In this document: piece by piece, positions 6,629 to 17,510 of the stretch
Layout: the number at the start of each line of letters is the position of its first letter
Position numbering within the stretch: the first letter of the stretch is position 1
NCBI GenBank assembly: GCA_019322375.1
Contig: JAHWIP010000003.1
Location: forward strand, 6,792 to 70,791
Direction: 5' to 3'
Origin: Candidatus Woesearchaeota archaeon
GTDB taxonomy: Archaea; Nanobdellota; Nanobdellia; Woesearchaeales; SM23-78
DNA: 64,000 nucleotides
The notes under the pieces: generated by a model
The model's input: the letters and a program-made list of their open reading frames with translations, nothing else
Told to the model about the DNA's origin: nothing
The model's database searches: none
Position numbers and translations under genes: made by a program

Positions 6629-8074
6629 ATGGGAGTTGTTGACAATATAATGGGAGCGGTTCTTGTTGTCCTTATACTATTGATTGCTGGCATTATTTAT
6701 CTGTCCCTTTTTGCACGCGAAGCATCACAGGATATTAGTGTGACCAGCACTGCTTTTTTTAATGGTATAAACACAAATAATTTTAACACTGTTCTTAAAA
6801 TAACAGAGGAGAATTCCCAAAAATCTTTGGGTGTTTTAATTTCAGAAATAACTTATTACAGGTCTTTGCCTGCGCAGTCAGATGACGGACCTAATGTAAC
6901 AGGGACTTTAAAGGATTTGCTGGATACTGCTTTTTCCACTAATGATTATTATTTCAAAGCAGAACCAGAACTAACACAGATTAGTCTGAACTTTGTTTTT
7001 GACGGCACACCCAGCTCTATGCTTAAGAGAAATGTATTAGCAAACAATCTGGTGAATATAATAGACTTTACCCAGGAAAAAATGGATAATAAAAGCAGAA
7101 GCGAGGGGCGTATTCCAAAAAACTCGGTTACAGCAGATGTATACATCATGGGTCCAAGAGGTGACAAATGCAATATCTTTGATGATTTAAACAGGGTTGA
7201 TATAAACTGCCATGGCATTCGCAGCAATGAGATATATTTAAGCGAGGACATGATGCAAGGACTTTTTGTGCCTGGTTTTCTGCTTGACTATGAAATGTAT
7301 CCTCCTTTTGGTTTTGAATGGATTGAGGAGGATGCTAACAGAGAAGACTCATACGTGGCTAATGAAGAAGATTATTATCAAGCTGACTGGGGTTTTGGAA
7401 CAGCTTATGTATCGCATAAACTAAGCAGTGCAGCTTATAGGAATCGTTTAAACCTTATTTTTCCTGTGAGTGATGAACTATCCACCAGCTCTATACCTGA
7501 TGATTGTTTTTACAAGACATTTATTCCTGACTGGGTTGTGTGCGCTCTTTGCGAGGATGAATGCCCTGTTGAAAGAGCTAACATATCCATTAGCAAGGCA
7601 ATAGAAGTGGCAACAGATTATAATCATGTGCTCATACCTGTTTATGGTTATGGAGGTGATTATGAAATAACCCATCCCCAGATTTATGATTGGAATGGCC
7701 TTGCAGGCACTTCAAGATATGTTGATGGTTTTGGAAGCCCTGGAAATACCTGGTGTGATGCTTCTGGGTGTGGTGGTTGTTCAGAACAACAAGGAGGCAT
7801 ATGCTTTCATCCTGATTGTGCAAGCATTCTGCAGGAGCACATGAACAGAATGGCTGATGAAACCAATGGAATATTCATTGACCTGACTGCTAGCCAGCAG
7901 GAATTTGCAGACACCATCTTTTCAACAATAAGCAATATCATGGACCAGTTCACAATAGAGATTGGGGTGAAAAATGAGAGCAGGGAAAGGGATGTGGTGG
8001 AAGTGAAACAGCCCCTGCCAGATGGAAATTCTCTTCCCTTGAAGTTATGGGTGTATAAGAATCAAAACATTTAA
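6629..8074 (+). CDS. Large pilin-like surface protein, unknown function
   Basis: 481 aa; N-terminal TM VVDNIMGAVLVVLILLIAGIIYL with SD AAAGGTGG upstream; Cys-containing ectodomain. Confidence 0.5.
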   Translation: MGVVDNIMGAVLVVLILLIAGIIYLSLFAREASQDISVTSTAFFNGINTNNFNTVLKITEENSQKSLGVLISEITYYRSLPAQSDDGPNVTGTLKDLLDTAFSTNDYYFKAEPELTQISLNFVFDGTPSSMLKRNVLANNLVNIIDFTQEKMDNKSRSEGRIPKNSVTADVYIMGPRGDKCNIFDDLNRVDINCHGIRSNEIYLSEDMMQGLFVPGFLLDYEMYPPFGFEWIEEDANREDSYVANEEDYYQADWGFGTAYVSHKLSSAAYRNRLNLIFPVSDELSTSSIPDDCFYKTFIPDWVVCALCEDECPVERANISISKAIEVATDYNHVLIPVYGYGGDYEITHPQIYDWNGLAGTSRYVDGFGSPGNTWCDASGCGGCSEQQGGICFHPDCASILQEHMNRMADETNGIFIDLTASQQEFADTIFSTISNIMDQFTIEIGVKNESRERDVVEVKQPLPDGNSLPLKLWVYKNQNI

Positions 8075-8127
8075 ATCAGAATAAATTAAATATATAGAAA
8101 GAAATAATATATAACGAGGTTGGTACT

Positions 8128-9744
8128 ATGAAACTTGATAAAAAAGCATTTGGTAAAAAAGCAAATGTACTTGCTGCTGTTTTAGTAATAATAGTTGTTG
8201 TTGCAGGAACTGTTGTGTTCTCTAATATTGTTGTTAAGAAGTACCCGACAGAAGATTCTCAGGAAAACTTTAACACCCAGGCAGATGCTACTCTTAGGGA
8301 AGCTATTTTCTCAGGCATTGCTGACTGGCTTGAGAACGGGTTTTCGCACAGAACTCCTTTCTGGTATAACAATGAGCCCCGTCCTGTTTCTTTTTCAGAA
8401 GCCCTGGATGCTCTGTACTACTATGTGAATAACAGTGTGAGCAAGAATGCAGATTTATTAACTGATGATGAATCTGATTTCTATGTGGCTCCAGGCGTGC
8501 GCGTGGTGTTTGATATACATAACTCTTTTGACCCTGAATCCCTGGACGGCTCTTTAGAGGATTTTGAGGTTGGCATACAAAAAGAGGATTTAGAGCAATT
8601 ACAAGACCTTTCATCTGAGTTTTCTTATCCTGTAAAAGCAGGCTTGTTCTTCACCACCTTTAACACTTGGATGGAGAGCAATGCTGATAATGTTACCCAG
8701 AACATGTTTGACAAGCTCCTGGAAAAACCATGCCAGTTAGTGACAGGGGTGTGCCTGTGTGATGAGCCTGGAGCAGAGTTTGACCCAGATGCTATAGATA
8801 ATATAAAGCTCAAGTACAGTGATGTTCAGGATGTGCTTGATGAAAGAGTGCAGGCCTTGGAAGATTTGTTTCCTGCTGACGAAAACATTGAGTGCGGATA
8901 CATAGTTGAGAAGCTGAACATAAACAATCATATGTATTCTGACTGGAGCAGAGAAGAAATCGGGCCTGAGCGTACTATAGAAGTTCCAGTGAGAGTAGAC
9001 CCTGATCCGTTTGGCTATGTTTTTAACTTTTTAGAATGGAATGAAACCACAACTTATCCTGAGGAAGAAGACTTGACTTATTTTAACCTAAGACCTCCTC
9101 TGCCTGTTGACACAGGAATACAAGGAGTTTATCCAGGCGATGCAGAGGTTATGAAGAGCTGTGAGGAAGCAATTGCAGACATCCCAGAAGACCCTGACAA
9201 GCCTGTAAAAGTTGGCATGCTTGCCATGAACAAAAAAGTTGCTTTGCTGGCAAAAATCTACTGTGCTCATCCAGAAATAAAAAAATATGGAGAAACAGGT
9301 TTTGAGCCTTTAACAGCAGAATTCAGAATAAGGGTATCCCTTGCTTTGGACTGTCCTTTGCCTAGCTATGATGTGGACAAGCATGTTGGTGAGCCAATAT
9401 ATCAGGAACCATTTATTAATTGCGAAATACCTCCGCCTCCTCTTCCTGAACCTGCTGAGATACCAGTTCCTTGCATGAGTCCTGAGGACTGCCCTGACCC
9501 ATGCGAGGAATGTAATTTAGCTACTGGCAGATGCGTGGATATTCCTAATTGCTGCTGCGGAGTAATTATGCCGTCTGGAATGAAGTGCTGTAGTTGTAAT
9601 AATATCTGCAGTGCTTGCTGTGGCAGGAATTGCCTGCCTGCTGGACGAGTGTGCTGCAAAGGCCAGGTGTGCGCATCAGGACAGATTTGCTGTGGCGGAG
9701 AGTTCTGCTCTTCAAGTGCTGCATGCAGTGCAGCAGTTAGCTAA
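8128..9744 (+). CDS. Large pilin-like surface protein with a C-terminal Cys-rich (CC-repeat) tail
   Basis: 538 aa; N-terminus GKKA|NVLAAVLVIIVVVAG. The last ~70 aa contain >20 Cys in CC, CxC and CxxC arrangements. Confidence 0.55.
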   Translation: MKLDKKAFGKKANVLAAVLVIIVVVAGTVVFSNIVVKKYPTEDSQENFNTQADATLREAIFSGIADWLENGFSHRTPFWYNNEPRPVSFSEALDALYYYVNNSVSKNADLLTDDESDFYVAPGVRVVFDIHNSFDPESLDGSLEDFEVGIQKEDLEQLQDLSSEFSYPVKAGLFFTTFNTWMESNADNVTQNMFDKLLEKPCQLVTGVCLCDEPGAEFDPDAIDNIKLKYSDVQDVLDERVQALEDLFPADENIECGYIVEKLNINNHMYSDWSREEIGPERTIEVPVRVDPDPFGYVFNFLEWNETTTYPEEEDLTYFNLRPPLPVDTGIQGVYPGDAEVMKSCEEAIADIPEDPDKPVKVGMLAMNKKVALLAKIYCAHPEIKKYGETGFEPLTAEFRIRVSLALDCPLPSYDVDKHVGEPIYQEPFINCEIPPPPLPEPAEIPVPCMSPEDCPDPCEECNLATGRCVDIPNCCCGVIMPSGMKCCSCNNICSACCGRNCLPAGRVCCKGQVCASGQICCGGEFCSSSAACSAAVS

Positions 9745-9845
9745 GGATACCCCAAACTTTAAAAAGAGAAACCAAATCTTAATTTATATAAATATAAAAG
9801 GTGATTTATGTGGTAGTAGAATTTAGTGAATTCAAAGGCAATAAA

Positions 9846-9965
9846 ATGATTGTTTTAAAGAGAAGCGATGAAGACCCTTTTCCATTCAGGTTTGGAAAGA
9901 ACAAAGCCAAACTCTTAGTAGAAAATTACGAAGCTGTTAAGAAGTTTGCTGAGGAAGAGGACTGA
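9846..9965 (+). CDS. Small 39-aa ORF (MIVLKRSDEDPFPFRFGKNKAKLLVENYEAVKKFAEEED) whose 3' end forms the left copy of a 27-bp direct repeat
   Basis: ATG 9846, TGA 9963-9965, TATA-like box upstream; its last 27 nt are duplicated at 11047-11073. Confidence 0.25.
   Translation: MIVLKRSDEDPFPFRFGKNKAKLLVENYEAVKKFAEEED
9939..9965. repeat. Left copy of a perfect 27-bp direct repeat AAGAAGTTTGCTGAGGAAGAGGACTGA
   Basis: Identical to 11047-11073; the pair flanks a 1.08-kb two-gene module. Confidence 0.7.
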
Positions 9966-10041
9966 TTTTTTAACTAATAACTATTTTATTTTTAGTTTTC
10001 TTTCATAAGCTTTATATAATTGTAATACTTTCCTATTCATT

Positions 10042-10485
10042 ATGGAGAAAATAGAAGAAATAATAATAAATACTTTACGAAATCCGAAATCAGCCAGGCA
10101 AATTAAATATTTAGCTCTTGATTTACTATCTAATGCATTGAATATAAATGTTTTGGCTGATTTAGCTAAAAAGCACAACATTGAAAATAGAATGGGTTAC
10201 TTAGCGGAGATTAGTGCTATTGCTGCTAAAAAAGAAGGGCTATCCTCTTACTCAAAATTGAATAAATTGAAAAATCAATTATCTAATGGAAAGCGTTCTT
10301 GGGCTTATTTAGAACCTACTTTGCCTGAATATGCTAAACGAATAATCGCTGATAACCCTCAAACTAAATATAATAGAAAATGGAAAGTATATTCTACTCT
10401 TAAACCCAAAGAAATTTGTGATTGGGTTAAACTTTATGGTTTAAAGAAAAATGCCCCCTCTTTATCAAGACAAGGAGCTTACTAA
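10042..10485 (+). CDS. Hypothetical protein, putative cognate partner (antitoxin-like) of the downstream nucleotidyltransferase
   Basis: 147 aa; overlaps the downstream NTase gene by ~35 nt (TA-like arrangement); lies inside the repeat-flanked insert. Confidence 0.4.
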   Translation: MEKIEEIIINTLRNPKSARQIKYLALDLLSNALNINVLADLAKKHNIENRMGYLAEISAIAAKKEGLSSYSKLNKLKNQLSNGKRSWAYLEPTLPEYAKRIIADNPQTKYNRKWKVYSTLKPKEICDWVKLYGLKKNAPSLSRQGAY

Positions 10486-11002
10486 GGAAAATGTTCTTTC
10501 TATTTTAAGAGAAATAGATTCTGATTTAGAAGGATTACAGAGAAAATTAAGATTATATTGTTTAGGAGGCACACAACTAGCTCTTATAGACCTTAGAACT
10601 GTTTCTAAAGATATCGATTTTATAGTGTCTCATAATGATTGGATGATGTTAAGCGGTCCAGTTGCAAGGATAGAGAATAAAAAGGAAATAAGGTTTGATG
10701 TATTTCCAGGAGGCGAACTTCCTAACTACACATACCAATCTTATACTTTCCATGCGAAGAAACTTCCTTTCTATTTTAATAACTTAGAGATTTATTCCAT
10801 AGATGATGCAGATTTTGTATTGACAAAAGCACTTTCTGGCAGAGGAATAGATTACGAAGATATTGATACCCTCCTTTCCGGGGGAATTGAAATTCCTAAA
10901 GAAGTTCTTGTTGAACGATTTAAGGGTGTAAAACCCATGAAAGGAAAAGAAAGGGAGATTAAAGATAAATTTGAAAAATTCCTTAATGAATTTTATAAAT
11001 AA
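10451..11002 (+). CDS. Pol-beta-superfamily nucleotidyltransferase (AbiEii/MNT-like)
   Basis: 183 aa; motif CLGGTQLALIDLRTVSKDIDFIV matches the hG[GS]...D.D NTase signature. Confidence 0.55.
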   Translation: MPPLYQDKELTKENVLSILREIDSDLEGLQRKLRLYCLGGTQLALIDLRTVSKDIDFIVSHNDWMMLSGPVARIENKKEIRFDVFPGGELPNYTYQSYTFHAKKLPFYFNNLEIYSIDDADFVLTKALSGRGIDYEDIDTLLSGGIEIPKEVLVERFKGVKPMKGKEREIKDKFEKFLNEFYK

Positions 11003-11046
11003 TAATTGTAAACTCTACATTATATTCATCCTTTTGAAAGTAAATC

Positions 11047-11073
11047 AAGAAGTTTGCTGAGGAAGAGGACTGA
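11047..11073. repeat. Right copy of the 27-bp direct repeat
   Basis: Exact duplicate of 9939-9965. It is not part of an ORF here, because an in-frame TAA precedes it. Confidence 0.7.
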
Positions 11074-11134
11074 GCCAATTTTTTAGTTTACCAGAACATT
11101 TATATATTTTCATTGTTTTCTTTACTATTCTAGA

Positions 11135-11875
11135 ATGAAAAGAAGAGATTTTATTAAGACAACAGGTTTGGGATTAGCAGGCCTTACTTTGAGTTTGAAT
11201 GAGGTAAATTGTTTTTCTCCTAAAGAACAAGAATTCTCTGTCCGTTTTGGAACAAATATACGTGGATATTTATGTATAGATGATTTTATAGCAGAAAAGA
11301 CCGGAACTGTCAAGGAATTAAAAGATTTTTACAAAAACACTTTTATCAAGTATCATCCCATTATAGAGGTGTGGGATAAGGATTTAGATGAGAATATTAT
11401 TGCAATGCTTGAAAATGACAAAGATATCTTACCAGTTCCATACAAACCACGTGATTTTCATGATTCTGATATAGAGAGACTTCATTATAAAATAAGTCCT
11501 GTTGTGAAGAAACTACGTTATTTTAAGCGTTTTAACATAGACAATATAACTCATGAGTTTGTATTTGAATTTATGTTTTCAGCAGGCAAGATTCTTGGCT
11601 TGCACGGATTTAGTATTGGGAAAGAAATAAAAGAAGACAGGGGTTTCAATGCCTTTTTCTTTTTAGGATATCATGATAAGGATGATTTTGGAGCAGGGGC
11701 TGGTACAACTTTGAGTGCTAGAACTTTTGGGATTAATTATAAACCAATTAAGGATTTAAATGATAACAAGATATTTAATTCACTTGCTAATCATGTAGAT
11801 ATGAGTGATAAAAGAAAGCGTTTGATTAAAGCGCTTGAAGGCCAGAAAGAAGTTCAGAAATATATGCATGGTTAG
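11135..11875 (+). CDS. Hypothetical exported protein with a twin-arginine-like signal (MKRRDFIKTTGLGLAGLTL)
   Basis: 246 aa; RRxFIK followed by a hydrophobic stretch resembles a Tat signal. Confidence 0.45.
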   Translation: MKRRDFIKTTGLGLAGLTLSLNEVNCFSPKEQEFSVRFGTNIRGYLCIDDFIAEKTGTVKELKDFYKNTFIKYHPIIEVWDKDLDENIIAMLENDKDILPVPYKPRDFHDSDIERLHYKISPVVKKLRYFKRFNIDNITHEFVFEFMFSAGKILGLHGFSIGKEIKEDRGFNAFFFLGYHDKDDFGAGAGTTLSARTFGINYKPIKDLNDNKIFNSLANHVDMSDKRKRLIKALEGQKEVQKYMHG

Positions 11876-11885
11876 AATAATATCT

Positions 11886-12875
11886 TCATATCTTCTTCAC
11901 TATCATGCCTTTAAAATCTTTGCTTAGCATTTCTTTGGCTTTTTTAGTCATGTCTGCTGTTGTTATGAATATTACCGGCAGTTTCCTGGCCTGTCCTTGC
12001 ACATAAGCACTGCTTAGGTCGCCGTCATTTATTTTCTTTTTCTTTTTTGCTTTGCAATAGTATTCCTGGCTTCCTATACGAGAAGGAACTGCCAGAGTTA
12101 GTTCTATGTCTGATTTTTTCCTTTTAATCTTGTACTCAAGCACCTGTATATCATTCTTTTTGCAATAACCCCAAACTTTTTTGAAGAAAGAATCTTTTTC
12201 TCTTTCCAAATCTTCAGATGGTATGCCTAGTTCTTGCTGGACTTCTTCTCTTGATTCTTTCTTTTCGTCTTTTTCCTCTTCCTTTGCCACAGCAACCCTC
12301 GCGAGCTTTGGGCGAGCGAGCAACAAATCTTTTTCTTTTTCAGTTTTTTCTTCAGTTTTTATTTCTTCTTGCTTTATTTCGGGTTTCTTTTCCTCAACTT
12401 TCTTAACAGGCACCTTTACCACTTTTCTCGCAGGCCTTATCTCACTTAGTATCATCTGCTCTGCTTCCTTTGTCGGCGTCATATACCATTTCCAATAGAT
12501 TTCTCTCTGCCCTTTAACTGTTACTTCCAATGGCTTTGCAAAATCCCTTATGCTTCTCAAACTAACTCTTACTAATGGGCTTAAATCCCTGTCTTTCAAA
12601 ATCTTTTTCTGCCTTAACAACTCTGCTGTTTTCCTGTCTTTTTCATTCAAATACTTCATTAAGTTCTGCAGCCTTACCTCTGTTCCTGGCGTGTAATAAG
12701 CAGGTGTGCTCCCAACTTTTGTATTGGTTACATTGACTTTGCCTGCTTCTTTTAACTCTGCGAGTATAGCTCCAAGAAGAATTGTATCTCCTGCCTTGAT
12801 AATCTTTTTCAGCTCATTAGGAATAAGAGGCCCTCTCATCTGCACAACTTTAAGAATGTCTTCTTTGTTAACCAT
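11886..12875 (-). CDS. Winged-helix DNA-binding protein (TFE-alpha-like N-terminus) with a K/E-rich linker and a C-terminal restriction-endonuclease-like (Mrr-cat-like) domain
   Basis: 329 aa; N-terminal wH-like segment; central EKK/EEK low-complexity region. The C-terminal part (YYCKAKKKKKINDGDL...VIFITTADMTKKAKEML) resembles an Mrr catalytic-domain pattern. The assignment is tentative. Confidence 0.4.
   Translation of the reverse strand: MVNKEDILKVVQMRGPLIPNELKKIIKAGDTILLGAILAELKEAGKVNVTNTKVGSTPAYYTPGTEVRLQNLMKYLNEKDRKTAELLRQKKILKDRDLSPLVRVSLRSIRDFAKPLEVTVKGQREIYWKWYMTPTKEAEQMILSEIRPARKVVKVPVKKVEEKKPEIKQEEIKTEEKTEKEKDLLLARPKLARVAVAKEEEKDEKKESREEVQQELGIPSEDLEREKDSFFKKVWGYCKKNDIQVLEYKIKRKKSDIELTLAVPSRIGSQEYYCKAKKKKKINDGDLSSAYVQGQARKLPVIFITTADMTKKAKEMLSKDFKGMIVKKI
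12296..12323 (-). repeat. Copy B of a 28-nt GC-rich motif (TTGCTCGCTCGCCCAAAGCTCGCGAGGG on the minus strand)
   Basis: Lies within the K/E linker of gene 11886-12875; see copies at 47995 and 61421. Confidence 0.55.
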
Positions 12876-12979
12876 TTTGTTATATTATTATCTTATATTA
12901 TCTTCTCCAAGTGAATAATTTTAGTATTAGAACTCTGTTTATATAAATTTATATTATTTACTTATAGAATCCAGGCAAA

Positions 12980-13717
12980 TCAGGGTCTCATCCATTTAAT
13001 CTCATAATAAGTAACATCGCCTTCGTCGTCTACTATGCCCATCATTAATCTCTTTTTGGTACTATGAGCCACCCTGTTCTTGGCTGCAAACTCATACCAT
13101 GTTAAGGTTTCTCCTTCATGTACTGGAAAGATTATCCATCTTGCATGGTCTTCTCCTGGCCTTATTCCTCTGTCATAAACCCTGAAATCAGCTCCAAACT
13201 TTAGCGCAGTCTTAATTATATACCCGCGATTCCTCATATCCTTAAACACACAATACCTTATCCAGAAGTTTGGCTCTACTGTTCTTGCTTTTTTTATGAA
13301 TTCCTCTGAGGTAATTGCTTTTTTTCTTTTTTCAGAAATGATTATCTTGCCTTTTTCAAGCAGATACAGTGCTTCTGGCAGTGAGAGCTGCACTTTGCCG
13401 TCTTCCATTACTTGTCCATAAGCACTTTTGCTAAACAGGTTTCTTGCTTCATCTGTTGACTCTGTTATCACTCTTTCCCTTGCAAACATGGCTTTGATTA
13501 CTTCTTTTGGCTTTTTTTCTGTTAGTTTTTCTTTTGGTTTTTCAGCTACTTTAACCTCTACTTTGGCTTTCTTCTTGCTTTCTTTCTTCTTAGCACTTTT
13601 CTTTTTTTTACTGGTTTTCTTCTTTGAAGAAATGCTCAAAGGTTTACCTTTGGCACTCAAAGGCTCTGCCTTTGATGGCTCAGAAGATTTATCTTCTGTT
13701 GTTTTTTTCTTTGCCAT
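12980..13717 (-). CDS. endA: tRNA-splicing endonuclease EndA with a lysine-rich N-terminal extension
   Basis: C-terminal catalytic domain has the KFGADFRVY signature and conserved H/K context. ATG at 13717; the track ORF extends to 13825 via unlikely leader residues. N-terminal run KKKTSKKKKSAKKKESKKKAK. Confidence 0.7.
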   Translation of the reverse strand: MAKKKTTEDKSSEPSKAEPLSAKGKPLSISSKKKTSKKKKSAKKKESKKKAKVEVKVAEKPKEKLTEKKPKEVIKAMFARERVITESTDEARNLFSKSAYGQVMEDGKVQLSLPEALYLLEKGKIIISEKRKKAITSEEFIKKARTVEPNFWIRYCVFKDMRNRGYIIKTALKFGADFRVYDRGIRPGEDHARWIIFPVHEGETLTWYEFAAKNRVAHSTKKRLMMGIVDDEGDVTYYEIKWMRP

Positions 13718-16868: not shown

Positions 16869-17510
16869 TCACCTCAGCCTCATCTGCCTTAGCTTCAAAT
16901 ACTTCTTATCTGGTCTGAAGGCATAGGCTGTATGCTCATCAAAGTATCCACACATTATCCTGTTTAAGGGTATGCCTGTTCTTCTGCTCAGCATCAGGGC
17001 ATAGAAAAAGACCTGTGTAGAAGCATATTTTTCCTGCTCTGCTCTTGGCTTGTAATCCCAGACCCATACTTTGTCATTATCAATTCTTAGAACATCTATG
17101 TGTCCTGATAAAGGCTCTTTGCTCTGAAATAATTCCTCATGCTTCCTGCCCAGCTCATATGCTTTAAGCCAGATAGGAACCTCAACTCCTACAGTAGAGT
17201 TATCATAGCTTAGCATGAACACCTGAACATTGCTGTGGGCATTTGTGTATTTATTCCAGTCAAGCCCTTCTCTTGCCAGCATTGATACTTCGTGGTTGTC
17301 TATCTGCCTGGGCCTTATTCCTATATCAAACCTTAGCCTGCTTCCCCTGGGTCCTGCTAGAAAAGGCTCTTGAGGGCAGTTTTCAAAAACCCTGTTAAGG
17401 TAGGTGTGCAGAGGAGAGAGACCATTATCTCTGAGCAAGCCCAGCTTTGCCCTGTGCAGCCTGTAGTGATAATACCATCCATGGTCTAGAGAAACGTGTT
17501 GCAGCATCAT
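16869..17510 (-). CDS. Hypothetical protein, possible PD-(D/E)xK-like nuclease fold
   Basis: 213 aa with locally higher GC. The motif HIDVLRIDNDKVWVWDYKP has D..D.K spacing reminiscent of PD-(D/E)xK; weak. Confidence 0.4.
   Translation of the reverse strand: MMLQHVSLDHGWYYHYRLHRAKLGLLRDNGLSPLHTYLNRVFENCPQEPFLAGPRGSRLRFDIGIRPRQIDNHEVSMLAREGLDWNKYTNAHSNVQVFMLSYDNSTVGVEVPIWLKAYELGRKHEELFQSKEPLSGHIDVLRIDNDKVWVWDYKPRAEQEKYASTQVFFYALMLSRRTGIPLNRIMCGYFDEHTAYAFRPDKKYLKLRQMRLR

What the first reader, a model, noticed from the sequence alone, without database searches (positions are those of the whole stretch)
9939..11073. 1.08-kb wHTH + nucleotidyltransferase (toxin-antitoxin-like) module inserted between perfect 27-bp direct repeats
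AAGAAGTTTGCTGAGGAAGAGGACTGA occurs at 9939-9965 and again at 11047-11073. The left copy is the 3' end, including the stop, of a small ORF. The right copy is non-coding. Between them lie two overlapping genes: a 147-aa partner and a GG(S/T)...DxD nucleotidyltransferase of the AbiEii/MNT type. This looks like site-specific insertion of a small addiction or defence cassette with duplication of the gene's 3' end (att-like). No integrase is present.
Basis: seen in the sequence. Interest (0 to 1): 0.55.

Follow-up and report, generated by a model that had tools for sequence, protein, structure and literature searches.

The report
Recombination scar beside archaeal toxin-antitoxin-like cassette
A small two-gene toxin-antitoxin-like module in a Woesearchaeota genome really is bracketed by a perfect 27-base repeat, but related genomes carry the module at the same spot without that repeat, so the repeat looks like a recent local recombination scar in a variable gene slot rather than the attachment site of a mobile element.

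Summary
The 27-mer occurs exactly twice, at 9939-9965 and 11047-11073. It is the only direct repeat of 20 nt or more in the 64-kb window. An independent k=31 assembly of the same sample crosses both copies.

The left copy is the 3' end of a conserved 51-aa gene. The right copy is non-coding. Between them lie an all-helical 147-aa partner and an overlapping 183-aa DUF6036 nucleotidyltransferase. The transferase model most resembles the MenT1 toxin.

- The cassette sits in the same slot in three relatives (NTase 86, 69 and 68% identical). There the NTase stop lies 1-2 nt from the convergent 329-aa gene. Where DNA is held (two of them), there is no right-hand repeat and no 11135 gene.
- Cassette-free relatives have the small gene directly abutting the 329-aa gene.
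- The 11135 gene is an ORFan.
- One relative carries a different, diverged small-gene remnant of about 36 nt on the other side of the cassette, so there is no fixed att core.
- No integrase was found nearby.

Most likely reading: an old resident TA-like module in a recombination hot spot. The perfect repeat is a recent scar from joining two versions of that slot. This is ordinary genome plasticity, and the partner family is uncharacterised. Interest is about 0.3.

The parts
9810..9965 (+). Conserved 51-aa small gene (GTG start). Left anchor of the variable slot. No Pfam family.
   Evidence: Called as 51 aa in Logan contig L002. 54 homologous clusters at 61-92% identity in Woesearchaeota/Nanoarchaeota MAGs. 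C-terminal KKFAEEE is conserved.
9939..9965 (+). R1: left copy of the 27-mer. It is the last 8 codons plus TGA of the small gene.
9966..10041 (+). IG1: cassette-linked intergenic region (16% GC) with a T-run and a TTTATATA box about 27 nt before the partner ATG. Inferred to hold the terminator of the small gene and an archaeal promoter of the cassette.
   Evidence: Sequence. GC. 82% identical to the equivalent region of relative L029, where it follows the non-coding remnant R-b.
10042..10485 (+). 147-aa partner, the putative antitoxin. All-alpha protein of a small uncharacterised family.
   Evidence: No Pfam, NCBIfam, PADLOC or PHROG hit. 51 representatives at 50% clustering. AF2 pLDDT 92.5 with 8 helices. 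No significant PDB or BFVD match; the highest TM is 0.45 to Rv2827c at E=2. Always directly upstream of, and overlapping, a DUF6036 NTase.
10451..11002 (+). 183-aa DUF6036 nucleotidyltransferase, the putative toxin. It overlaps the partner by 35 nt.
   Evidence: PF19502 E=1.7e-5. Motifs L38-G-G...S52-K-D54-I-D56, D83, K126, R131, D134 and D137 are invariant in 6 homologues. AF2 pLDDT 80. Best full-length PDB match is MenT1 toxin 8an4/8an5, TM 0.50, prob 1.0.
11003..11046 (.). y: 44-nt spacer of unknown origin between the NTase stop and R2. It is absent from relatives, where the NTase abuts the 329-aa gene.
   Evidence: Not detectably a remnant of the 329-gene 3' end. Weak resemblance of its 5' part to the end of IG1 (p 0.03). 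11039-11050 is the reverse complement of 10116-10127 (I3).
11047..11073 (+). R2: right, non-coding copy of the 27-mer. A truncated copy of the window's own small-gene 3' end.
   Evidence: A stop lies one codon upstream in frame. Every relative's orthologous core differs from the window's by 1-5 of 21 nt, so R2 comes from this lineage's own allele.
11074..11134 (+). N-type flank: T-run, TTTATATA box and leader of the 246-aa gene. Its first 23 nt resemble the flank that follows the intact small gene in relative L029.
   Evidence: 17 of 23 identical at fixed offset (binomial 9e-5; 11 of 17 and 9e-3 without the T-run). Genome-wide controls reach higher scores, so support is moderate.
11135..11875 (+). 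246-aa ORFan with a Tat-like signal (MKRRDFIKTT...). Lineage-specific occupant of the same slot. Not part of the TA module, but part of the extra DNA relative to all relatives.
   Evidence: Only itself (KY348_00285) among 5.8 billion proteins. No tblastn hit in any fetched locus. TIGR01409 E=0.017, below the cut-off. Unrelated to the NTase and partner.
11886..12875 (-). Conserved 329-aa gene, convergent. Right anchor of the variable slot, followed by tRNA-splicing endonuclease and a metallo-beta-lactamase-fold gene.
   Evidence: 56-81% identical homologues in L004-L008 and L011-L016, and a 31% homologue in L017, with the same right-hand synteny.

Best explanation
What it is. Genes 10042-11002 form a toxin-antitoxin-type operon. 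An upstream all-helical partner is the presumed antitoxin. It is translationally coupled to a DUF6036 Pol-beta-fold nucleotidyltransferase, the presumed toxin. By analogy with MenT/AbiEii, the toxin would block translation by adding nucleotides to tRNA 3' ends, and it would be held in check by partner binding, possibly through induced auto-phosphorylation of the Ser two residues before the first catalytic Asp. These functional steps are inferred.

Where it sits. The module is not a fresh insertion. It is a long-standing occupant of a variable slot between a conserved 51-aa gene and a convergent 329-aa gene in one Woesearchaeota clade. That slot is empty in some lineages. It holds the cassette in others, a different 131-aa gene in one, and the cassette plus an ORFan in this genome.

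What the repeat is. The perfect 27-bp repeat is a recent, lineage-specific recombination scar. A single event joined two versions of the slot. One version was small gene - IG1 - cassette. The other was small gene - native flank - 246-aa gene. The join left a truncated second copy of the small gene's own 3' end. The event could have been an unequal or illegitimate crossover between two chromosome copies or strains. It could equally have been a Campbell-type single crossover of a circularised fragment through this short homology, carried out by host recombination.

What stays open. The evidence does not say whether the cassette or the 246-aa gene segment was the newcomer. The conserved NTase/329-gene adjacency in relatives favours the 246 segment. 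The repeats now allow precise loss of the cassette by recombination between R1 and R2.
For: Repeat real and unique. Both junctions are crossed by an independent k=31 assembly.

Same-slot cassettes:
- L018: NTase 86% aa, with '...aaaaggTAActTCAtatcttcttcac'.
- L008: 69%.
- JGI 3300075153 contig: 68%, with the order FEN1 / partner / NTase / 337-aa gene / EndA / lactamase-fold. Gene table only, no DNA.
- L018 and L008 show no right-hand repeat.

Empty or otherwise filled slots:
- Empty: L004-L007, L011, L014, L021-L023.
- A different 131-aa gene in L012, with no flanking repeat.

Divergence: the cassette is as diverged as the core. Window vs L018/L029 is 84% DNA for the NTase and partner. Window vs L004 core genes is 82-87%. 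Window vs L008 is 69% for the NTase and 66% for the 329-aa protein.

The 246-aa gene is an ORFan.

Recurrent but different scar. L029 comes from the same sample as L018 and abuts it. It reads: small gene / 43-nt flank / about 36-nt diverged, frameshifted small-gene remnant / IG1 / partner. That remnant shares a 22-nt exact string with another lineage's small-gene end.

The N-flank matches at a fixed offset, 17 of 23.

R2 matches only the window's own allele, so the event is recent.

TA-like nature:
- 35-nt overlap, also present in relatives.
- The partner+NTase pair occurs in unrelated contexts, including a GC-rich bacterial-type contig.
- DUF6036 NTases on 33 haloarchaeal plasmids sit behind an overlapping regulator-like partner in the loci inspected.
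- Catalytic residues are invariant.
- The fold is MenT1-like. MenT mechanism and residues T39, D41, K137 and D152 are taken from PMC7450476 and PMC11375011.
Against: - A perfect 27-nt core flanked by unrelated or diverged arms is also the formal signature of att-type recombination.
- The 44-nt spacer y is unexplained and is not a remnant of the 329-gene end.
- The N-flank similarity is short and includes a T-run. Other places in the window score higher in an unconstrained search.
- It is not proven that L029 and L018 belong to one genome.
- No relative with the 246-aa gene exists, so neither parental haplotype has been observed intact.
- No toxicity, tRNA-modification or antitoxin data exist for DUF6036 proteins. 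No paper mentions the family.
- PADLOC has no model that hits either protein.
- The structural match to MenT1 is modest (TM 0.50, E about 2e-3).
Confidence: 0.55

Rival explanations
1. Site-specific (att-like) integration. A 1,108-bp circular cassette [R-IG1-partner-NTase-y] carrying an attP identical to the last 27 nt of the small gene was integrated by a trans-acting integrase into the small gene's 3' end upstream of the 246-aa gene. This restored the gene and duplicated the core. It is the first reader's model.
For: - Perfect 27-nt core with unrelated arms.
- The left copy restores the gene's 3' end and stop.
- R2 plus its flank resembles the native small-gene end plus flank in L029.
- A second lineage also has a duplicated small-gene 3' end next to the cassette.
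- Low GC of the insert.
Against: - The same cassette in the same slot in L018 and L008 lacks the right-hand core.
- The L029 remnant is about 36 nt, diverged, frameshifted, and on the other side with a 43-nt spacer. There is no fixed core or geometry.
- The cassette is as diverged as core genes.
- There is no integrase in the element or among 10 neighbours within about 10 kb.
- Distant cassette copies (L009, L010) have no flanking repeats.
- The 27-mer is absent from viral contigs.
- The low-GC block also includes the 246-aa gene outside the repeats.
Confidence: 0.15
2. The newcomer is the right-hand 883-bp segment (y + R2 + flank + 246-aa ORFan gene), inserted between the NTase and the 329-aa gene. 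R2 would be a short templated or filler copy of nearby sequence made during break repair by microhomology-mediated template switching. It would not be a product of recombination through R.
For: - NTase/329-gene adjacency of 1-2 nt is conserved in three relatives.
- The window NTase lacks the last codon present in all homologues, which places a junction at about 11000.
- The 246 gene is an ORFan.
- The y|R2 junction carries a 12-nt inverted copy of a partner-gene segment, and the 5' part of y resembles IG1. This is what patchwork filler would look like.
- R2 equals the window's own allele.
Against: - The patchwork matches are marginal (p about 0.03; a 12-mer in AT-rich DNA).
- It does not explain why R2's right flank resembles a native small-gene flank.
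- The origin of the 246-aa gene is unknown.
Confidence: 0.2
3. Artefact or coincidence. The contig is chimeric across a shared k-mer, or the 27-mer is a functional or common motif that recurs by chance or selection.
For: The MAG comes from a short-read metagenome. Bases 9991-10006, in a 16% GC stretch, are bridged only by the window's assembly.
Against: - Independent k=31 contigs run through both copies into both flanks.
- 0 matches are expected by chance.
- It is the only repeat of 20 nt or more in 64 kb.
- Relative L029 independently shows the small gene, IG1 and partner contiguous.
- No Rfam family matches.
Confidence: 0.03

Closest known systems
MenAT / AbiE nucleotidyltransferase toxin-antitoxin systems (DUF1814 toxins MenT1-4 and AbiEii, with MenA/AbiEi antitoxins)
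   Same: - Two-gene operon with the partner upstream and overlapping.
- Pol-beta NTase of about 180-190 aa with hGG...S-x-D-x-D, a second acidic motif and a C-terminal K...R..D..D helix region.
- The predicted fold aligns over its full length with MenT1 (8an4/8an5; TM 0.50, prob 1.0).
- A Ser two residues before the first catalytic Asp, like MenT1 T39-R-D41 (PMC11375011).
- Patchy presence among close relatives.
   Different: - No sequence match to DUF1814/AbiEii (PF08843). The Pfam family is DUF6036.
- The partner resembles neither MenA1 (68 aa, MazE-like) nor the AbiEi/MenA3 wHTH antitoxins by sequence.
- There is only a non-significant structural echo of Rv2827c.
- The host is a DPANN archaeon.
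- No experimental data exist.
DUF6036 NTase plus 'MarR family' partner (2x wHTH + HVO_2833_C, PF24271) on haloarchaeal plasmids
   Same: Same NTase Pfam family (about 25% identity over 84% of the protein). An upstream partner overlaps by 4 nt. It lies on replicons rich in accessory genes.
   Different: - The haloarchaeal NTase is 267 aa and its partner is 308 aa with two wHTH domains.
- The window partner is 147 aa with no HTH hit.
- Profile comparison to the haloarchaeal partner is not significant (prob 0.2).
HEPN-MNT toxin-antitoxin pairs
   Same: A small Pol-beta NTase paired with a small helical protein.
   Different: - In HEPN-MNT the NTase is the antitoxin and the helical HEPN RNase is the toxin.
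- The window partner has no Rx4-6H motif. Its single His, at residue 45, is not preceded by Arg at that spacing (read).
- No HEPN or NTP_transf_2 Pfam hit.
Integrative elements that target the 3' end of a gene and restore it (attL/attR direct repeats)
   Same: A direct repeat that includes the 3' end and stop of a gene, with the distal copy non-coding and cargo in between.
   Different: - No integrase.
- The element is only 1.1 kb.
- Relatives carry the cargo at the same place without the repeat, or with a differently sized and placed remnant.

Membership tests
Pfam DUF6036 (PF19502) nucleotidyltransferases | Score above Pfam's gathering threshold | tested here: met
   25.2 bits against a 23.6 cut-off, E=1.7e-5, residues 17-140. 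PF19502 is also precomputed for homologues P0055-P0059.
Pol-beta superfamily NTase (active enzyme) | hG[GS]x9-13Dh[DE]h plus a third acidic residue | tested here: met
   L38-G39-G40, then 13 residues, then D54-I55-D56-F57. F82-D83-V84 supplies the third acidic residue. All are invariant in 6 homologues.
AbiEii / MenT (DUF1814, PF08843) toxins | Sequence membership in DUF1814 | tested here: not met
   No PF08843 hit at E<0.1. The profile search of PDB sequences does not find MenT1, MenT3 or MenT4.
AbiEii / MenT (DUF1814, PF08843) toxins | Bi-lobed NTase fold with C-terminal motif III/IV residues (Lys and Asp essential in MenT3 and MenT1) | tested here: inconclusive
   Foldseek finds MenT1 8an4_B/8an5_B over 173-178 columns, TM 0.50, prob 1.0, E 2e-3 to 4e-3. 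K126, R131, D134 and D137 are invariant. Residue equivalence is inferred and was not superposed.
Toxin-antitoxin operon (any type) | Conserved adjacent and overlapping two-gene pair found in varied genomic contexts | tested here: met
   The pair is present in the window, L008, L018+L029, the JGI 17-kb contig, L009 and L010. Overlaps are 23-35 nt where the table or ORF list gives both coordinates.
Toxin-antitoxin operon (any type) | Toxin inhibits growth and the partner neutralises it | not testable with these tools
AbiEi-type antitoxin (N-terminal wHTH plus C-terminal antitoxicity domain) | [quoted passage not shown] | tested here: not met
   No HTH family in Pfam or NCBIfam for the window protein. 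Only 1 of 47 family members has a weak HTH_27 hit. The AF2 model (pLDDT 92.5) is 8 helices without a wing. Rv2827c matches at TM 0.45, E=2, prob 0.41 only.
HEPN-MNT | Partner is a HEPN domain with Rx4-6H | tested here: not met
   No HEPN Pfam hit. No Rx4-6H in the 147-aa sequence (read).
Known anti-phage defence systems (PADLOC-DB 2.0) | Match to a defence-system protein model | tested here: not met
   0 families for both proteins at E<0.1.
Integrase-mediated integrative element (attL/attR) | Integrase or recombinase gene in or near the element | tested here: not met
   The element encodes only the two TA-like proteins. 10 neighbouring proteins within about 10 kb show no recombinase domain. 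The rest of the MAG could not be tested.
Integrase-mediated integrative element (attL/attR) | Same core sequence bounds independent copies of the element | tested here: not met
   L018 and L008 have no core after the NTase. L029 has an about 36-nt diverged remnant left of the cassette after a 43-nt spacer. L009 and L010 have no flanking repeats.
Integrase-mediated integrative element (attL/attR) | Empty site (attB) in relatives equal to left flank + core + right flank | tested here: inconclusive
   Relatives without the cassette have the small gene followed after 12-36 nt by the 329-aa gene, not by the window's right flank. Only the first 23-25 nt of the window's right flank are matched, by L029's flank. 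The 246-aa gene has no homologue.
Transposon with target-site duplication | Short TSD (2-15 bp), terminal inverted repeats and a transposase | tested here: not met
   The repeat is 27 bp. No inverted repeat pairs the two inner ends. There is no transposase.

The most novel reading that the evidence does not exclude
The cassette is a minimal, integrase-less 'homing' addiction module. It travels between DPANN genomes with a short piece of the conserved small gene's 3' end and uses that piece as a portable homology or att site for host-mediated Campbell integration. This would repeatedly leave small-gene 3' remnants, as seen in two lineages, and would allow precise excision through the repeats.
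Probability: 0.12. Interest if true: 0.6.

Novelty: new member of a known kind. Interest (0 to 1): 0.3.

Why it matters
If the reading is right, this is a clear small-scale example of how accessory cassettes are shuffled in streamlined DPANN archaeal genomes. There is one fixed slot between two conserved genes, with alternative contents in different lineages. Short remnants of the anchor gene mark the recombination joints.

It also flags an uncharacterised pair, a DUF6036 nucleotidyltransferase plus a new all-helical partner family of about 50 clusters, as a candidate MenT/AbiE-like toxin-antitoxin system in archaea. That candidate could be tested directly.

It does not reveal a new mobility mechanism.

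Tried and rejected
1. The 44-nt spacer as a remnant of the 329-gene 3' end. Local alignment against four relatives gave p 0.05-0.6. Rejected.
2. The 246-aa protein as a diverged paralogue of the NTase or partner. This was prompted by in-frame DNA repeats D3 and D10 at a 945/948-nt offset. BLASTP gave E>1 and hhalign gave prob 0.1-0.2. Rejected.
3. Extension of the repeat into IG1 against the 246 leader. The gapped score was 39, p 0.013, but other AT-rich windows reach 36-38. Too weak to use.
4. Homology of the window partner to the haloarchaeal HVO_2833_C partner domain. hhalign gave prob 0.2. The available haloarchaeal sequences are 95% identical, so no better profile could be built. Inconclusive.
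5. The 27-mer in viral contigs: none.
6. Known RNA families across 9500-12000: none above threshold.
7. PADLOC, PHROGs and NCBIfam: no informative hits.
8. The metagenome scan with the NTase profile returned only two distant loci. The genome scan with the 329-aa anchor returned seven loci, none with the cassette.
9. DNA for the JGI 17-kb contig could not be fetched, so its left junction is known only from the gene table.
10. Literature: no paper mentions DUF6036.
Full report
OBSERVATION

The 27-mer AAGAAGTTTGCTGAGGAAGAGGACTGA is present exactly at 9939-9965 and 11047-11073. There is no third copy even with three mismatches, and none is expected in shuffled sequence. It does not extend without gaps. 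It is the only direct repeat of 20 nt or more in the 64-kb window.

The left copy is the last eight codons and stop of a small ORF. I read this ORF as 51 aa from GTG 9810, behind a GGTGA motif, and an independent contig calls it the same way. The right copy is non-coding, because a TAA sits one codon upstream in frame. Between the copies lie a 147-aa ORF (10042-10485) and a 183-aa ORF (10451-11002) that overlap by 35 nt.

The window comes from an NCBI 'Candidatus Woesearchaeota archaeon' MAG (locus tags KY348_00280 and KY348_00285). Two Logan k=31 contigs of sample SRR14699983 cover window 6879-9990 (8 SNPs, all far from the repeat) and 10007-13154 (exact). Each runs straight through one repeat copy into both of its flanks. 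Only 9991-10006, in a 16% GC stretch, rests on the window's assembly alone.

THE TWO GENES

The 183-aa protein is a DUF6036 nucleotidyltransferase (PF19502, 25.2 bits against a 23.6 cut-off). It has no AbiEii/DUF1814, MNT, PADLOC, NCBIfam or PHROG match.

The following positions are invariant in six homologues:
- L38-G-G, then 13 residues, then S52-K-D54-I-D56;
- D83;
- the C-terminal T-K126-A...R131..D134-Y-x-D137.

An AlphaFold model (pLDDT 80) finds the M. tuberculosis MenT1 toxin (8an4, 8an5) as its best full-length PDB match, with TM 0.50, probability 1.0 and 173-178 aligned columns. MenT toxins are DUF1814-family NTases that extend tRNA 3' ends. MenT1 residues T39, D41 and K137 are needed for the antitoxin-induced auto-phosphorylation of T39 that helps silence the toxin; D152 is a further conserved active-site residue (PMC7450476, PMC11375011). 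The window protein's S52-K-D54 has the same spacing as T39-R-D41. That equivalence is my inference.

The 147-aa partner belongs to a small family, with 51 representatives at 50% clustering. It has no Pfam hit. It folds confidently (pLDDT 92.5) as eight helices without a wing. It has no significant PDB or viral match. The highest TM, 0.45, is to Rv2827c, an AbiEi-type antitoxin, at E=2, which is only a lead. The 'wHTH' label is therefore not confirmed.

The pair recurs with the same order:
- in two distant loci of different context, one of them a GC-rich, bacterial-looking contig;
- in the close relatives described below.

DUF6036 NTases also occur on 33 haloarchaeal plasmids. In the loci inspected they lie behind an overlapping 308-aa partner with two wHTH domains plus HVO_2833_C. 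Homology of that partner to the window's partner could not be shown. Overall the pair has the anatomy of a MenT/AbiE-like toxin-antitoxin module. Its function is inferred.

COMPARATIVE CONTEXT

The small gene is conserved in 54 protein clusters of Woesearchaeota/Nanoarchaeota.

Cassette-free relatives:
- In the closest ones (L004-L007 and L011, small protein 92% identical; also L014 and L021-L023), its stop is followed after 12-36 nt by the stop of the convergent homologue of the window's 329-aa gene.
- After that come tRNA-splicing endonuclease and a lactamase-fold gene. This is the same right-hand synteny as in the window.
- Relative to these genomes the window has 1,920 extra bases (9966-11885): the cassette, a 44-nt spacer, R2, a 61-nt leader and the 246-aa gene.
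- The low-GC block (about 31-33% against 36-43%) covers all of this extra DNA, not just the part between the repeats.
- L012 has a different 131-aa gene in the same slot, without flanking repeats.

Cassette-bearing relatives:
- L018 (NTase 86% aa), L008 (69%) and a JGI 17-kb contig (68%, gene table only) carry partner plus NTase in the same slot.
- The NTase stop is 1-2 nt from the stop of the 329-aa homologue.
- L018 and L008, where DNA is held, have no right-hand repeat and no 246-aa gene.

Divergence:
- Window vs L018/L029 cassette DNA identity is 84%. Core-gene identity to L004 is 82-87%.
- Window vs L008 identity is 69% for the NTase and 66% for the 329-aa protein.
- The cassette is therefore an old resident of this slot, or has been exchanged only together with it. 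It is not a recent arrival.

The 246-aa protein has no relative among 5.8 billion proteins and none in any fetched locus. It carries a Tat-like signal.

A SECOND, DIFFERENT SCAR

L029 is a 596-bp contig from the same ENA sample as L018. It ends where L018 begins when both are projected on the window. It reads:
- FEN1-like gene start;
- small gene ending ...AAAAAATTCGCTGAGGAAGAAGATTGA;
- 43 nt;
- a non-coding, frameshifted remnant of about 36 nt of another small-gene 3' end (GAGCGACATAAAGAAATTTGCTGAGGAGGAATGA);
- the IG1 homologue (82% identical to the window);
- the partner gene (93% over its first 88 nt).

The remnant shares a 22-nt exact string with the small-gene end plus flank of lineage L012, and only 8 nt with L029's own small gene.

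The 43-nt stretch after L029's intact small gene matches the window's sequence after R2 at 17 of 23 positions at the same offset. The binomial probability is 9e-5, or 9e-3 when the T-run is left out. An unconstrained search finds higher local scores elsewhere in the window, so I treat this support as moderate.

There thus appear to be two versions of the DNA that follows the small gene:
- a cassette-linked version (IG1 plus cassette);
- a 'native' version (the N-flank).

Both the window and L029 contain both versions, stacked in opposite order. Each has a truncated small-gene end at the joint: 27 nt and perfect in the window, about 36 nt and diverged in L029. The remnant boundaries and geometry differ, so there is no fixed att core.

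In every relative the orthologous 21-nt core differs from the window's at 1-5 positions. R2 was therefore copied from this lineage's own allele, and the window's event is recent.

MECHANISM

The most economical account is one recombination event in this lineage that joined a cassette-bearing and an N-flank/246-bearing version of the slot. Two routes give this result:
- an unequal or illegitimate crossover between two chromosome copies or co-existing strains;
- a Campbell-type single crossover of a circularised fragment through the short homology.

The two routes give the same product and cannot be told apart here. The conserved NTase/329 adjacency in three relatives, and the loss of the NTase's last codon in the window, favour the right-hand 883 bp as the newcomer. 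The perfect core between unlike arms keeps a Campbell-type cassette integration possible.

Several points argue against a dedicated integrase/att system:
- the relatives without the core;
- the differently built L029 remnant;
- the age of the cassette;
- no recombinase in the element or among ten neighbours;
- no repeats around distant copies.

The 44-nt spacer remains unexplained. It is not a remnant of the 329-gene end. Its 5' part weakly resembles the end of IG1 (p 0.03). Its last 8 nt plus the first 4 nt of R2 are the reverse complement of 10116-10127 in the partner gene. This could be templated filler or chance.

COMPARISON AND VERDICT

- It works like a MenT/AbiE-type NTase toxin-antitoxin module.
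- By sequence it is a member of DUF6036, not of DUF1814. Its partner is a new, uncharacterised helical family.
- The repeat is real, but it is best read as a local recombination scar in a hot spot and not as an att site.
- This is ordinary genome plasticity with a modestly interesting, untested TA candidate.
- Interest 0.3. Novelty: new member of a known kind.

Noticed in passing
window 11135-11875: 246-aa ORF with a twin-arginine-like signal (MKRRDFIKTTGLGLAG...). It has no homologue at all among 5.8 billion proteins apart from its own NCBI record, and its GC is low (32%). It is a true ORFan occupying the same variable slot.
   Followed up: partly
window 9810-9965 and homologues P0001-P0054: The 51-aa protein (MVVEFxEFKGNKMIVLKR..ED..PF.FGKNKAKL.VENFE.IKKFAEEE) is highly conserved across Woesearchaeota/Nanoarchaeota MAGs. 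It has no Pfam, NCBIfam or PHROG family. About 60 nt of its promoter region is also conserved. It sits at a synteny break: upstream lies a pilin-like locus in the window, FEN1 then RNase H-like in close relatives, and peptidase M24 in others.
   Followed up: partly
window 11886-12875 (-): Conserved 329-aa protein that is always next to tRNA-splicing endonuclease in this clade. It has a lysine/glutamate-rich variable middle and only weak hits to Mrr_cat at the C-terminus (E 0.08). Function unknown.
   Followed up: no
window 6629-9744: Two large proteins (481 and 538 aa) with an N-terminal hydrophobic segment and very cysteine-rich C-termini (for example CCCGVIMPSGMKCCSCNNICSACCGRNC...). Neither has a Pfam family. 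The Logan contig differs from the window at 8 SNPs clustered in 7655-8030, which indicates strain variation in the 481-aa gene.
   Followed up: no
L012 6969-7364 (MAG DAOWFR010000089.1): A different 131-aa gene of unknown family fills the same slot between the small gene and the 329-aa homologue, with no flanking direct repeats.
   Followed up: partly
L019, L020, L026, L027 (haloarchaeal plasmids): A 'MarR family' partner (2x wHTH + HVO_2833_C) plus a DUF6036 NTase forms a nearly invariant module (95% identical partners) on plasmids of several haloarchaeal genera. On two of them (L019, L027) an ArdC-like gene lies nearby, and L019 also has an Orc1/Cdc6 gene. In Halobaculum roseum the pair is split by a TnpB gene.
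   Followed up: partly
window 11003-11050 vs 10014-10041 and 10116-10127: The 44-nt spacer before R2 looks patchy. ATAATTGTAA...ATTCAT resembles the last 30 nt of IG1 (p 0.03). AGTAAATCAAGA, which spans the spacer/R2 joint, is the exact reverse complement of a partner-gene segment. This may be templated filler DNA or chance.
   Followed up: partly
window 16869-17510 (-): 213-aa protein with a PD-(D/E)XK nuclease domain (PF12705, E 8e-6). It is the only nuclease-like hit among the ten neighbours scanned.
   Followed up: no
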